Part shown: positions 39,799-42,828 of the stretch, piece after piece | How positions within the stretch are numbered: the stretch's first letter is position 1 | How the letters are laid out: each line of letters starts with the position of its first letter | Assembly (NCBI GenBank): GCA_963726245.1 | Contig: CAVSBT010000017.1 | Location: 64,001 to 128,000, forward strand | From: an uncultured Chloroflexia bacterium | GTDB lineage: Bacteria > Chloroflexota > Dehalococcoidia > DSTF01 > JALHUB01 | Direction of reading: 5' to 3' | DNA length: 64,000 nucleotides | Made by a program: the position numbers and the translations under genes | The notes under the pieces: generated by a model | The model's input: the letters and a program-made list of their open reading frames with translations, nothing else | Database searches by the model: none | Told to the model about the DNA's origin: nothing

Positions 39799-40244
39799 AT
39801 GAGCGCGTCCAGGAAGGCAAAGTCGGAAGGCCGGGGGAACAAGCGCGGACGGCCCGCGCCGGCCCACGCCAGCCTCGGGCAGCCGCGGGCGAGGAGGGTT
39901 TGGGGCTGGTCGAAGTGCTGGTTGCCGTCGCCATCCTCGGCATGACGTTGGTCGCGCTCCTGGCCGCCCTCTCGACGGGCTCGATAGGCGTCACCACCAC
40001 GGATAGCGAGGTGACAGCCGCGAACCTGGCCCGCTCCCAGCTCGAGTACACCAGGAGCCAGCCGTACGCCGAGGTTCCCACTGAATACGCCACAGTGACG
40101 CCGCCGGCCGGATACACCGTGTCAGTACAGGCCGCCTCCATCCCCGAGCCCGTCACCGACACCAACATCCAGAAGATCACCGTTATCGTTGCCAGAGACG
40201 GCAAGACGCTGGCGACGGTTGAAGACTACAAGGTCAAGAGATGA
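39799..40244 (+). CDS. minor pilin (PilV-like); leader probably frameshifted
   Basis: GEEG|LGLVEVLVAVAILG class III signal; the in-frame ORF starts at 39900 and the upstream ATG at 39799 is out of frame. Confidence 0.78.
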
Positions 40245-42828
40245 AGGCGAGGAGAGGCGAGTCGGGCTTCACCCTGGTCGAGCTGCTGGTGGCCCTGGCC
40301 ATCGGCTCGGCTGTCATCGGCCTCCTCTCGACGGTTCTCTTCCAGTTCTTCAGCACCACCGGTCAGGGCCACGACAGGCTGGCGGTGCTGCACGACCATG
40401 ACATCGCCTTCGGGTGGCTCAATCGCGATGCGCAGATGGCGGTGCCCGAACTTGCGACGGTGGTCCCCTCCGGCGTCACCCTCTACTGGTCGGACGAGGT
40501 CGCCGGCACGACCTACCAGGCCTCGTACACGCAGTCGGGCTCGGACCTGGTGCGCGCCCTAATGGTGGACGGGACGCCGTCGAGCCAGACGGTGGCCCGC
40601 AACCTGGCCGCAGCCCCGGAAGGGTTCAGCGCCTCCAAGAGCGGCAACCTGGTTACAGTGAGCATCACGTCGGCGAAGGGGGCGGTCACTCAGGCCCGGA
40701 CGGAGTCCATCTATATGCGGCCCCTGGGGGTGACGACCACTCCCTTCCCAACGCAGCTTCCGACCGCCACGCCGACGCCCACTTCGACGCCTACGAGCAC
40801 GCCCACACCGACGGCCACCAGCACGCCTACGCCAAGACGAGTACGCCTACGCCGACCAACACGCCGACACCGACGCCCACCAACACGCGGACACCGACGC
40901 CCACCAACACGCCGACGGCGACGCCCACCAACACGCCGACGGCGACGCCTACCAACACGCCGACGGCGACGCCCACCAACACGCCGACGGCGACGCCTAC
41001 CAACACGCCGACGCCAGACGCCAACGCCGACCAACACGCCGACGCCACCACTATCACGCCGACGGCGACGCCTACCAACACGCCCACGCCGACGCCTGTC
41101 TGCGCTGCCATATCGCTCGTCCATAAGTACAGCGCCGTCGTGGGCGACGGAACCAACGGCTTCTCCAGCATCACCGCTACGTACACCACCGCGCCTACGG
41201 CAGGCAACCTGCTGATCGCCGTCTTCGGCGAGAGCGGCAGCAACAACATCAACACGCCGAGCGGCTGGCAGGTCGCCGTCGTCTATCAGAACACCTCGCC
41301 GGGCGGCGCGATCTTCTACAAGATAGCCTCCGGCTCCGAATCCACCGTCACCGTGACGACCACCGGTGGTAGTTCGACCTCCTACGGCATGGGATTGCAG
41401 CTCTATGAGTACAGCGGCATGGCCGCTACCTCGCCGCTCGATGCCGTCGCAACGCCCAGTTCGGGCAGCGGCACGTCTCTGACATCGGGGAGCCTCACGA
41501 CCACGCAGGCCTGCGACCTGCTTATGTCGGGGGCCGCTATCAACACCGCCGCCACCTTCACCTGGGGCAGCTCCTTCACCGAAGAGTTCGACTTCCACAA
41601 CGGCGGCACCAACGAACGTTCTTTCAGCGGTGCAGACCGCGCGGTTGCGTCTACCGGCAGCTACTCTTCCTCGGCGACCGCCAGCGCGTCCGCTGCCTGG
41701 AGCGCGCTGCTGGCCGCGTTCAAGATGGCTGCTCCGACGCCGACGCCTACCAACACGCCGACGCCGACGCCTACCAACACGCCGACGCCCACGGCCACGC
41801 CTACCAACACGCCGACGGCCACGTTCACGAATACGCCGACGGCGACGCCTACAAACACGCCAACGGCCACGTTCACGAATACGCCGACGCCGACGGCCAC
41901 GCCCACCAACACGCCAACGGCCACTCCCTCCGATACGCCGACGCCCACGCCAACAAGCACCGCGACTCCTTCGCCGATGTGGCTGACGACGGGCACCTAC
42001 ACGGGCAACGGCGTCGACGGCAGGCAGATTACCGGTGTCGGCTTCCAGCCGGATGTCGTCATCATTAAGGCCGCTACCAATCGCGCAGGCGTGATCCGCA
42101 CGAGCACGATGTCCGGTGACCAGGCCAAGGTCCTGGGTACCACCACGGCGCTTCAGCCCAACTACATCCAATCATTCATCGCCGATGGCTTTACGGTGGG
42201 CACGGCTGTCCAAGTCAACACGTCAGGTGTGACTTACTACTGGGTGGCGATGAAAGCCGGCAGCAACCTGCATCTCGGCACCTATGTCGGCAACGGCGCC
42301 GACAACCGGTCCATCGCCGGCGTCGGCTTCCAGCCGGTCTGGGTGATCACCCTGGGGGACGGCAACGACTCGGCCTTCCGGCCCGCCGCCTTGGCCGGCG
42401 ACAACTCGTATCTGATGACCGGCACCGGCACGATAACGAATCGTATTCAGGCCCTGCAGGCCGATGGCTTCCAGGTCGGCAGCAACGTGGACGTCAACCA
42501 GTCCGGCACGACCTTCCACTACATTGCCTGGGCGGCGAGCGCCCAGGTATCCCAACAGACCTACACAGGAAATGGCTTGGACAACCGGTCGATTGCCGGC
42601 GTCGGCTTCCAGCCGCAGGTTGTCTGGGTGAAGCGTGACGACGCGCAGGCGTCAGTGTGGCGTCCCGCGAGCGCCGCCGGCGACACAACCCTGTACTGGG
42701 CCGCGACGGCGGCCACGACGAACCGCATCCAGGCGCTCCAGGCGGACGGCTTCCAGGTGGGCACAAATGCCCAGGTCAACACTAATGGCAGCACCTACTA
42801 TTATCTGGCGCTCCGCGACGGCCGTTAA
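40241..42828 (+). CDS. giant minor pilin (PilW-like) fused via Thr-Pro linkers to two putative adhesin domains; frameshift near 40835
   Basis: [17 protein letters not shown] signal; the TPT repeat continues across the frame change into ORF 40414-42828. Confidence 0.8.
40760..41098 (+). repeat. 24-bp coding tandem repeat (TPTNTPTA), linker 1
   Basis: acgcccaccaacacgccgacggcg units. Confidence 0.9.
41733..41976 (+). repeat. coding TPTNTPT repeat, linker 2
   Basis: acgcctaccaacacgccg units. Confidence 0.9.

What the first reader, a model, noticed from the sequence alone, without database searches (positions are those of the whole stretch)
40241..42828. Giant stalked minor pilin carrying two adhesin-like domains: candidate self-contained tip adhesin of a monoderm type IV pilus
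Seen: a normal class III pilin N-terminus (G|FTLVELL) and ~165-aa pilin body, then a ~110-aa TPTNTPTA stalk, a ~205-aa Ser/Thr-rich beta domain ('[31 protein letters not shown]'), a second ~80-aa Thr-Pro stalk and a C-terminal threefold-repeat domain. The total is about 860 aa if the indel near 40835 is an error. Established: PilW-type minor pilins are usually 200-300 aa, and T4aP tip adhesins are usually separate non-pilin PilY1 proteins; no pilY1 is present in this cluster. Inference: the adhesin is fused directly to a core minor pilin and held out on a stiff, probably O-glycosylated stalk. From memory, the first domain resembles segments of MSHA MshQ-like and phage structural proteins; this is unverified.
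Basis: partly seen in the sequence, partly recalled or inferred. Interest (0 to 1): 0.78.

Follow-up and report, generated by a model that had tools for sequence, protein, structure and literature searches.

The report
Modular minor pilin with phage-like cargo
This is a very large type IV minor pilin of an uncultured Dehalococcoidia bacterium that holds two phage-tail-like binding domains out on Thr-Pro stalks; relatives carry intact copies with different cargo, and the break in this copy is probably an assembly error.

Summary
Window 40241-42828 encodes a class III pilin N-terminus and a ~170-aa pilin module, a ~114-aa Thr-Pro stalk, a 213-aa all-beta domain (D1, no Pfam family), a 79-aa stalk and three DUF7483 repeats.

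**The break.** The gene is broken near 40835. A short out-of-phase patch lies at 41016-41047. At least four unrelated genes in the window, including uppS, are also split by frameshifts. Intact 864-894-aa orthologues with the same layout exist in other Dehalococcoidia MAGs. The break is therefore most likely a consensus error.

**Swapped cargo.** Relatives carry Rx3 alone, D1 plus one repeat, two D1 copies, or unrelated domains. D1 is 88% identical in DNA to locus L013, against 61-72% for the rest of the locus. Module trees are discordant.

**Phage links.** D1 matches phage minor tail proteins in fold (TM 0.76-0.83). Rx3 matches phage tail-fibre families.

**Known and new.** Modular pilins are an established concept (Raynaud 2021), so this is a new variant: multi-module, stalked, mosaic, with phage-like cargo. 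Tip location, adhesion and stalk glycosylation remain inference. "PilW-type" and "MshQ-like" are not supported.

The parts
40241..40267 (+). Class III (prepilin) leader peptide MKARRGESG, with the predicted cleavage site before Phe10
   Evidence: Sequence read. N_methyl PF07963 covers residues 4-29 and TIGR02532 covers 8-28. G-1, F+1 and E+5 are read directly from the sequence.
40241..40750 (+). Pilin module (~170 aa) of a minor pilin
   Evidence: Aligns at 53-57% identity with six full-length relatives, with 53 invariant columns. tblastn-confirmed relatives occur in 15 genome loci. dN/dS is 0.30-0.38.
40751..41094 (+). Thr-Pro stalk 1 (~114 codons). It holds the frame break at ~40833-40837 and an out-of-phase patch at ~41016-41047.
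   Evidence: 24-nt tandem repeat. Three-frame reading. Short homopolymer contexts at each switch.
41095..41733 (+). Domain D1, 213 aa, all-beta, with no Pfam, NCBIfam or PHROG family
   Evidence: AlphaFold model has pLDDT 95.6 and 15 strands. BFVD gives 93 matches at E<=1e-3, with top TM 0.76-0.83 to phage proteins, the named ones being minor tail proteins. PDB gives 0 matches at E<=1e-3. 2,272 representative proteins match at E<=1e-3.
41734..41970 (+). Thr-Pro stalk 2 (79 aa)
   Evidence: Tandem repeats of period 24 and 54. Composition is 38 Thr and 22 Pro of 79 residues.
41971..42828 (+). C-terminal domain of three ~94-aa repeats (Rx3, Pfam DUF7483), followed by the stop codon
   Evidence: PF24299 at 93 bits in 3 stretches. 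phrog_24898 'tail fiber protein' at E 6e-38. Model has pLDDT 97.6. tblastn hits in 11 phage records.
39799..40244 (+). PilV/GspI-like minor pilin directly upstream. The leader region appears frame-disturbed.
   Evidence: TIGR02523 pilV at E 1.7e-5 and GspI at E 5.8e-4, both below cut-off. The body frame has no start codon before G|LGLVEV, and the ATG at 39799 is in another frame. Orthologues have normal leaders.
42902..43630 (+). PilX/GspK-like minor pilin directly downstream (G|QALPLAL, no Glu5). It has a frameshift near 43540.
   Evidence: The orthologue tails '..RNGRT..SWQLE*' lie in another window frame. The conserved G|Q[FA]LPLAL N-terminus is seen in 5 of 5 orthologues. No Pfam or NCBIfam family matches.
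36250..36615 (+). Major pilin candidate ([22 protein letters not shown])
   Evidence: N_methyl at E 1e-7. Weak N-terminal matches to PilA, GspG and ComGC. Coordinates.
36872..39796 (+). Candidate PilB-type assembly ATPase (36872-38575) and PilC-type platform protein (38591-39796). Both names rest on inspection and position; neither ORF was scanned against a family library.
   Evidence: ORFs. Full-length single-frame matches to the corresponding genes in the orthologous loci.
43627..47690 (+). GspM/PilO-like protein, PilM, PilN, prepilin peptidase (45835-46581) and a candidate PilT-type retraction ATPase (46554-47690; name by inspection, not scanned)
   Evidence: PilM_2, PilN, A24_N_bact and Peptidase_A24. 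GspM at E 5e-6, below cut-off. ORFs.

Best explanation
The locus encodes one modular minor type IV pilin of about 860 aa.

- A prepilin leader and a ~160-aa pilin module anchor it in the pilus. The module probably joins the PilV-like and PilX-like minor pilins encoded on either side.
- Two Thr-Pro stalks hold out two beta-rich modules: D1 and a three-repeat DUF7483 domain. Both belong to families also used in tailed-phage tail proteins.
- Because ~700 aa of C-terminal cargo could hardly be packed into the filament shaft, the protein most likely sits at or near the pilus tip. There it would act as the pilus's own adhesin, probably for a glycan or cell-surface ligand.
- A candidate PilT-type ATPase in the cluster could supply retraction.
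- The frame break in this copy is most likely an indel error of the assembly, not biology.
- Across relatives, cargo modules have been exchanged on a conserved pilin module.

Shown here: the architecture, intact orthologues, module families, cargo variation, discordant module histories and purifying selection. Inferred: tip location, ligand binding, glycosylation and the artefact status of the break.
For: **Pilin signature and peptidase.** Both are present in the cluster.

**Intact same-layout orthologues.** P0007 (864 aa), P0008 (886 aa) and P0012 (878 aa); L010, L011 and L013.

**Conserved gene order.** In 5 of 5 loci compared, the gene is flanked by counterparts of the window's PilC-, PilV-like and PilX-like ORFs.

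**Frameshifts elsewhere in the window.** Pfam half-domains lie in different frames:
- alpha/beta hydrolase, 19644-20634
- FtsX, 34522-35841
- Glucodextran_N, 50727-52414
- uppS, 62370-63195

All pil indels sit at short homopolymers.

**Selection.** dN/dS is 0.12-0.38 in all three modules.

**Cargo families.**
- The contig's own 562-aa gene call (P0006) starts inside D1 (D1 boundaries).
- D1 partners in 30 other proteins are surface domains such as Ig, PKD, SLH, fn3, TIG, beta-helix and a T9SS tail.
- D1's fold matches phage minor tail proteins.
- Rx3 matches tail-fibre PHROGs and annotated phage tail fibres.

**Cargo variation and mosaicism.**
- Architectures vary between relatives.
- Identity to the window differs by module.
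- DNA identity to L013 is 88.1% for D1, against 60.7% (pilin), 70.1% (Rx3), 69.3% (PilC) and 72.0% (PilT).
- Module trees are discordant, each with 100/99 support.
Against: - The only sequence in hand is broken, and no reads were available.
- Indels are denser in the minor-pilin genes than elsewhere: about 5 in 3.8 kb, against at least 4 in the other ~60 kb. This would also fit real decay or strain mixing.
- No experiment or solved structure ties D1 or DUF7483 to any ligand.
- D1 has no significant PDB analogue.
- The PDB matches for Rx3 are weak, with TM at most 0.35.
- The pilin module's fold and its contacts with the neighbouring minor pilins were not modelled.
- The pilin module matched nothing in a PDB profile search at E<0.2.
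Confidence: 0.6

Rival explanations
1. The gene is a genuine pseudogene in this organism. The minor-pilin block (PilV-like, modular pilin, PilX-like) is decaying while the assembly machinery is kept.
For: There are three frame switches in the pilin, one in the PilX-like gene and a probable one in the PilV-like leader. This is a higher density than in the rest of the window.
Against: uppS, which I recall to be an essential gene, and three other unrelated genes are broken in the same way, which points to consensus errors. Downstream of the break, 669 codons stay open and show dN/dS of 0.12-0.24. Two of the three pilin shifts cancel each other within ~30 nt. Thr-Pro repeats are an assembly trouble spot: 5 of 15 related contigs end just after the pilin module, in or just beyond stalk 1.
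Confidence: 0.15
2. There are two separate genes: a short pilin with a low-complexity tail, and an independent secreted protein carrying D1 and DUF7483, as the contig's own 562-aa gene call implies.
For: ORF listing. The window's own protein P0006 is 562 aa.
Against: P0006 begins inside D1's first strands and has no signal peptide (D1 boundaries). The pilin frame runs into ~130 aa of Arg-rich out-of-frame text. Eight complete orthologues (L001, L006, L007, L009-L013) are single ORFs.
Confidence: 0.02
3. The cargo is not an adhesin. It acts as an enzyme, for example a glycan depolymerase like many phage tail proteins, or as a sensor or phage decoy displayed on the pilus.
For: Phage tail proteins of related fold can be enzymes (my own knowledge). 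D1 co-occurs with Peptidase_C25, M23 and beta-helix regions. D1 has nearly invariant Glu, Tyr and Asp positions: E105, Y106 and D116.
Against: No catalytic family matched D1 or Rx3. D1 mostly appears as an accessory module beside Ig, PKD or SLH repeats. Rx3's weak PDB neighbours are lectins and pseudo-threefold binding heads.
Confidence: 0.13
4. The pilin is incorporated along the shaft, or remains membrane-anchored. The long flexible stalks then let the cargo decorate the filament or cell surface rather than the tip.
For: Raynaud et al. state that a position in the filament body cannot be excluded if the linker is flexible enough (passage read). The stalks here are 79-114 aa.
Against: The gene lies between a GspI/PilV-like pilin and a Glu5-less PilX/GspK-like pilin. 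From my own knowledge, that is the arrangement of tip-priming minor pilins.
Confidence: 0.1

Closest known systems
Modular type IV pilins PilB (vWA module) and PilC (lectin module) of Streptococcus sanguinis (Raynaud et al. 2021, PMC8179133, passages read; Shahin et al. 2023, PMC9934059, search listing only)
   Same: An N-terminal pilin module with a class III signal, fused to a functional C-terminal module that the pilus presents. A global survey found more than 1,200 such proteins in 264 architectures, including an 860-residue example.
   Different: - This protein has several modules in series, separated by 79-114-aa Thr-Pro stalks instead of a short linker.
- The cargo families differ: D1 has no Pfam model, and DUF7483 stands in place of vWA or ConA-like lectin.
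- The host is an uncultured Dehalococcoidia bacterium.
- The modules have clearly been exchanged between relatives.
CofB (ETEC) and TcpB (Vibrio cholerae) type IVb minor pilins
   Same: A pilin module plus a linker plus beta-rich C-terminal domains. CofB is predicted to sit at the tip (passage).
   Different: No sequence relation was found: PDB searches with the cargo part and the pilin profile did not hit them. CofB forms a homotrimer, whereas here three repeats lie in one chain. The cluster is not T4b-like, and it includes a candidate PilT-type ATPase.
PilY1/PilC tip adhesins of T4aP
   Same: The proposed role is the same: an adhesive, modular protein presented at the tip by core minor pilins (passage).
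   Different: PilY1 is not a pilin and is defined by a C-terminal beta-propeller. No such family was detected here. Here the carrier is the pilin itself.
Phage tail fibre and virion proteins with DUF7483-type repeats (phrog_24898, phrog_19943; Synechococcus phage S-CBS2 and Pelagibacter phage HTVC011P tail fibres)
   Same: Homologous three-repeat domain: E 6e-38 to the PHROG, and 25-30% identity over at least 95% of the domain in 7 phage records.
   Different: Here the domain is carried by a pilin instead of a tail-fibre shaft. No receptor is known for either.
Mycobacteriophage 'minor tail proteins' and uncharacterised Caudovirales proteins sharing the D1 fold
   Same: Predicted-structure match with TM 0.76-0.83 and RMSD 2.6-3.4 A for the best hits. 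93 matches reach E<=1e-3.
   Different: Sequence identity is only 13-32%. There was no PHROG match and no tblastn match to 50,697 phage records. The function of the phage domains is also unknown.

Membership tests
Type IV pilin (class III signal peptide, PF07963 / TIGR02532) | Short polar leader ending in Gly, a hydrophobic +1 residue, Glu at +5, and a ~20-aa hydrophobic helix | tested here: met
   [31 protein letters not shown]07963 scores 32.5 bits against 21.2. TIGR02532 scores 23.1 bits against 16.3.
Type IV pilin (class III signal peptide, PF07963 / TIGR02532) | A cognate prepilin peptidase and assembly machinery in the genome | tested here: met
   A24_N_bact and Peptidase_A24 at 45835-46581, plus PilM and PilN. 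Candidate PilB, PilC and PilT ORFs are named by inspection.
Type IV pilin (class III signal peptide, PF07963 / TIGR02532) | Globular pilin fold (alpha1 helix packed on a beta-sheet) | not tested
The PDB profile search with the pilin module found nothing at E<0.2.
Modular pilin (sensu Raynaud et al. 2021) | One polypeptide with an N-terminal pilin module and additional non-pilin module(s) | tested here: inconclusive
   Met in 8 complete orthologues. In the window the reading frame is interrupted once net, and reads are needed to settle it.
DUF7483 (PF24299) | Score above the Pfam gathering cut-off | tested here: met
   93 bits against 27, in three stretches.
PilW / GspJ-type core minor pilin | Match to the family model at its cut-off | tested here: not met
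   GspJ TIGR01711 scores 17.8 bits against 64.85. ComGF scores 21.6 against 80. Both matches cover the N-terminal helix only.
PilY1 / PilC tip adhesin | C-terminal PilY1 beta-propeller domain; not a pilin | tested here: not met
   No such Pfam family appears in P0002 or in the cluster proteins I scanned. The protein is a pilin.
MSHA MshQ-like | Sequence match to MshQ-type models | tested here: not met
   NCBIfam returned 0 families for the cargo part at E<=0.1. Pfam returned only DUF7483.
CofB/TcpB-type T4b minor pilin | Sequence relation to CofB or TcpB | tested here: not met
   PDB sequence searches did not retrieve CofB or TcpB.
CofB/TcpB-type T4b minor pilin | Homotrimer formation | not tested

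The most novel reading that the evidence does not exclude
Dehalococcoidia pili carry a cassette system for their tip. A conserved minor-pilin carrier takes interchangeable binding modules of the kind phages use in their tails: Rx3, a single R repeat, D1, D3, D4 and others. The Thr-Pro stalk-coding tandem repeats would then serve both as spacers and as the recombination joints through which cassettes move between lineages, and possibly to and from phages. The D1 cassette appears to have moved recently: its DNA identity to L013 is 88%, against 61-72% for the flanking modules and for PilC and PilT.
Probability: 0.35. Interest if true: 0.65.

Novelty: new variant of a known kind. Interest (0 to 1): 0.45.

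Why it matters
How type IV pili stick to things is still poorly understood, and modular pilins are the simplest answer proposed so far. This family would extend that idea in three ways. It comes from an abundant, uncultured soil and sediment lineage. It shows several binding modules mounted in series on long stalks. It also shows that the modules are shared with phage tail proteins and have been exchanged between relatives.

The work also defines D1, a widespread surface and phage domain with 2,272 representative proteins, a confident model, no Pfam family and no solved analogue. D1 is a concrete target for structural and binding work.

There is a practical lesson too. The contig's 562-aa gene call is an artefact of a frame error in a repeat.

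Tried and rejected
**Searches that led nowhere**
- The PDB sequence search with the cargo part hit only Thr-Pro low-complexity linkers.
- The PDB profile search with the pilin module found nothing at E<0.2.
- The Foldseek PDB search for D1 gave no match at E<=1e-3, with TM below 0.3.
- The Foldseek PDB search for Rx3 gave 6 matches at E<=1e-3, all with TM at most 0.33. They were perforin-like APC-beta, Plasmodium PKG kinase and a Parkia lectin. Further down the list came PCSK9 C-terminal domains and single-chain adiponectin and C1q heads. I take from this only a hint of a pseudo-threefold beta assembly.
- D1 matched no PHROG and gave no tblastn match in 50,697 phage records.
- L001's other cargo domains (D3, D4) matched no Pfam or PHROG family.

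**Complex prediction, never run**
- I wanted a trimer prediction for the single-repeat form, to ask whether one R unit trimerises.
It was never accepted because the queue was full, so there is no result.

**Readings considered and rejected**
- A programmed frameshift: the orthologues are in one frame.
- Two genes: see the rival explanations.

**Literature searches**
- 'DUF7483' found 0 papers.
- 'Chloroflexi' with 'type IV pili' and 'minor pilin' found 4 papers.
- 'Dehalococcoidia' with 'pilin' and 'type IV' found 6 papers.
- A search on minor pilins and tail fibres found 5 papers.
- Judged by titles and abstract starts, none describes this family.
- The two supplementary spreadsheets of Raynaud 2021 hold no 'Chloroflexi', 'Dehalococcoid' or 'Anaerolinea'. 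The supplementary PDF could not be read.

**Not checked**
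Full report
**1. Observation**

The ORF listing shows two overlapping + strand ORFs, 40241-41215 (324 aa) and 40414-42828 (804 aa).

- The first ORF begins [22 protein letters not shown]. It matches the prepilin N-methylation motif: PF07963 at E 5.7e-8 and 32.5 bits against a cut-off of 21.2, and TIGR02532 at 23.1 bits against 16.3.
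- After ~170 pilin residues it enters a Thr-Pro repeat. It then degenerates into Arg-rich text.
- The Thr-Pro reading continues in the other frame from ~40837.
- Between ~41016 and ~41047 the Thr-Pro reading jumps back to the pilin frame, so the long ORF reads [10 protein letters not shown] there.
- In total there are three frame switches, and the net effect is one break.

| Part | Coordinates | Notes |
|---|---|---|
| Stalk 1 | 40751-41094 | 24-nt repeat, 10.5 copies |
| D1 | 41095-41733 | 213 aa |
| Stalk 2 | 41734-41970 | 79 aa, 38 Thr and 22 Pro |
| Rx3 | 41971-42825 | three ~94-aa repeats, PF24299 DUF7483 at 93 bits against 27 |

**2. Is the break real?**

I could not see reads, but three lines point to a consensus error.

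(a) *Intact orthologues exist.*
- A protein search with D1 returned 39 proteins at E<=1e-3.
- Among them were P0007 (864 aa), P0008 (886 aa) and P0012 (878 aa), which have exactly the same layout in one frame.
- A scan of species-representative genomes with the pilin-module alignment gave 15 loci, all Dehalococcoidia or 'Chloroflexia' MAGs.
- In 10 of the 15 loci the ORF is complete.

(b) *Other genes in the window are split the same way.* Pfam half-domains lie in different frames.

| Gene | First piece (profile positions) | Second piece (profile positions) |
|---|---|---|
| alpha/beta hydrolase | 19644-20270 (2-103 of 245) | 20107-20634 (158-244) |
| FtsX | 34522-35841 ORF (2-41 of 120) | 35465-35776 (42-120) |
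| Glucodextran_N | 50727-51029 (2-78 of 263) | 51029-52414 (89-260) |
| uppS (Prenyltransf) | 62370- (1-117 of 219) | 62815-63195 (118-219, E 9e-39) |

uppS is, from my own recall, an essential gene.

(c) *The neighbouring minor pilins are also frame-disturbed.*
- The PilX-like gene loses its conserved tail '..RNGRT..SWQLE*' to another frame near 43540.
- The PilV-like body frame has no start codon upstream of its G|LGLVEV site, while the ATG at 39799 is in another frame.
- All switches sit at short homopolymers.

*Against the artefact reading.* The indel density is higher in the minor-pilin genes (about 5 in 3.8 kb) than elsewhere (at least 4 in ~60 kb). Strain mixing, repeat-related consensus trouble or real decay could each explain that. 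Five of the 15 related contigs end just after the pilin module, in or just beyond stalk 1, so this region is hard to assemble. The contig's own gene call, P0006 (562 aa), starts inside D1 (D1 boundaries), so it is an artefact of the break.

**3. What the modules are**

*Pilin module.*
- It is 53-57% identical to six relatives, with 53 invariant columns.
- No named minor-pilin family reaches its cut-off: GspJ scores 17.8 against 64.85 and ComGF 21.6 against 80.

*D1.*
- It has no Pfam, NCBIfam or PHROG family.
- It is nevertheless a large family. 2,272 representative proteins match at E<=1e-3, 365 at <=1e-10 and 25 at <=1e-30, out of 1.84 billion.
- In 30 carriers scanned, its partners are surface-protein domains: Ig, PKD, SLH, fn3, TIG, He_PIG, beta-helix, Peptidase_C25 and M23, and a T9SS sorting tail.
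- The AlphaFold model from a 38-row alignment is confident (pLDDT 95.6, pTM 0.93) and all-beta with 15 strands.
- Foldseek found no PDB match at E<=1e-3.
- It found 93 BFVD matches at E<=1e-3, the best with TM 0.76-0.83.
- The named BFVD matches are mainly mycobacteriophage 'minor tail proteins', plus one 'Carbohydrate-binding, CenC-like'.
- The ESM Atlas neighbours, scoring 0.95-0.96, are unnamed clusters that are 71-82% viral.

*Rx3.*
- It matches phrog_24898 'tail fiber protein' at E 6e-38 and phrog_19943 'virion structural protein' at E 2.5e-29.
- tblastn hits 11 of 50,697 phage records. The matches are 25-30% identical over at least 80% of the domain in 7 of them.
- Annotations under those hits include 'tail fiber (protein)' for Synechococcus phage S-CBS2 and Pelagibacter phage HTVC011P.
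- The model has pLDDT 97.6.
- PDB neighbours are weak, with TM at most 0.35. They include several pseudo-threefold beta assemblies.

**4. Context**

- The gene sits in a type IV pilus cluster.
- In order, the cluster holds a major pilin candidate (36250-36615), a candidate PilB-type ATPase, a candidate PilC-type platform protein, the PilV/GspI-like pilin and this gene.
- These are followed by a PilX/GspK-like protein with G|QALPLAL and no Glu5, a GspM/PilO-like protein, PilM, PilN, the prepilin peptidase and a candidate PilT-type ATPase.
- The PilB, PilC and PilT names rest on inspection and position only. Those ORFs were not scanned against a family library.
- The flanking genes are conserved in 5 of 5 loci compared.
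- No secretin or PilY1 family appeared among the ORFs I scanned.

**5. Cargo is swapped**

Complete genome loci:

| Architecture | Loci |
|---|---|
| PIL-TP-D1-TP-Rx3 (as in the window) | L010, L011, L013 |
| PIL-TP-Rx3 | L006, L009 |
| PIL-TP-D1-R (single repeat) | L007, L012 |
| PIL-TP-D3-TP-D3-TP-D4-TP-D3 (1,005 aa) | L001 |
| Plain 160-164-aa pilins (Dehalococcoidales) | L014, L015 |

Further architectures appear among database proteins.
- Two D1 copies plus one R repeat: P0003.
- D3 plus D1 plus one R repeat: P0010.
- ~450-aa pilins fused straight to Rx3 with no stalk: P0199 and P0205. Ten of the 120 listed Rx3 hits carry PF07963.
- D3 in two or three copies: P0307, P0309 and P0310.
- Other unknown modules: P0311 and P0312.

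The modules have different histories.
- The window's pilin module is 66-69% identical to L001, L002 and L004, whose cargo differs. It is only 53-57% identical to the pilin modules of D1 carriers.
- Its D1 is 84-89% identical to the D1 of those same carriers.
- Against L013, DNA identity is 88.1% for D1, 60.7% for the pilin module, 70.1% for Rx3, 69.3% for PilC and 72.0% for PilT.
- Against L013, dS is 0.37 for D1, 1.39 for the pilin module and 1.15 for Rx3.
- Maximum-likelihood trees place the window with L001, L002 and L004 for the pilin module (100/99 support). For D1 they place it inside the clade of L010, L011, L013 and P0008 (100/99 support).
- dN/dS is 0.12-0.38 throughout.

**6. Mechanism**

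Shown: a pilin carrier with a peptidase site, two stalks, two conserved beta modules of families shared with phage tail proteins, and a position between a GspI-like and a Glu5-less GspK-like minor pilin.

Inferred, with approximate odds:
- It is incorporated with the neighbouring minor pilins in the priming complex at the tip (about 0.6). The reasoning is that ~700 aa of cargo would not fit in the shaft, and Raynaud et al. argue the same for modular pilins.
- The cargo binds a glycan or cell-surface ligand, as phage receptor-binding modules do (about 0.5).
- A PilT-type ATPase then pulls on the bound ligand.
- The stalks are extended and perhaps O-glycosylated. This is inference from composition only. 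No glycosyltransferase family was seen among the ORFs I scanned.

**7. Compared with what is known**

- Modular pilins are established. S. sanguinis PilB and PilC are the models, and a survey found more than 1,200 proteins in 264 architectures, including an 860-residue case (Raynaud 2021, passages read; Pelicic 2019, passages read).
- CofB, ComZ and GspK are cited there as further cases.
- This family belongs to that kind.
- What differs is the serial, stalked, multi-module build, the phage-tail-type cargo (one module with no curated family or solved analogue), the evidence for cassette exchange, and the host lineage.
- My literature searches found no description of it, judged from titles and abstract starts only.
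The complex prediction never ran.

**8. Verdict**

- It is a new variant of a known kind.
- Interest is moderate (0.45).
- The most novel reading still open is a Thr-Pro-jointed cassette system that shares binding modules with phages (probability about 0.35).

Noticed in passing
window 19644-20634, 34522-35841, 50727-53172, 62370-63195: Four unrelated genes (alpha/beta hydrolase, FtsX permease, glucodextranase/GH15, uppS) are each split, with Pfam half-domains lying in different frames. The contig evidently carries single-base indel errors, so gene calls on it should be treated with care.
   Followed up: partly
window 42902-43630 and 39799-39905: The PilX-like gene loses its conserved C-terminal ~27 aa to another frame near 43540. 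The PilV-like gene has its only upstream ATG (39799) out of frame with the pilin body.
   Followed up: partly
L001 8001-11015; also P0010, P0307-P0311: A third cargo module, D3 (~150 aa, motifs GDTGYLNP, GDRHR[FY]Y[ND]Y and VRLDWWL), occurs in 1-3 copies on the same pilin carrier. L001 also carries a fourth module, D4. Neither matched Pfam or PHROGs.
   Followed up: partly
L002, L003, L004, L005, L008: Five of 15 related contigs end just after the pilin module, in or just beyond stalk 1. The repeat breaks assemblies, so databases hold many truncated copies of this family.
   Followed up: no
P0201 (same 2.3-Mb contig as L010) and P0198: 338-aa proteins with an N-terminal hydrophobic segment and Rx3 but no pilin module. 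They are a second, non-pilin carrier of the domain in the same genomes.
   Followed up: no
L007 9408-9698, L012 4151-4441: The single R repeat in these loci has lost some otherwise near-invariant positions (GLAFQLL for GVGFQP, YYCPAPRHGG for [10 protein letters not shown]). It may be decaying, or adapted to a different assembly state.
   Followed up: no
window 55280-59206 (-): A 1,308-aa HAMP-GGDEF-PAS-HD(GYP-type) signalling protein lies ~8 kb downstream of the pilus cluster. It could be a c-di-GMP link to surface behaviour.
   Followed up: no
window 25105-25755 (-) and 26179-26895 (-): Two neighbouring DUF5671 genes.
   Followed up: no
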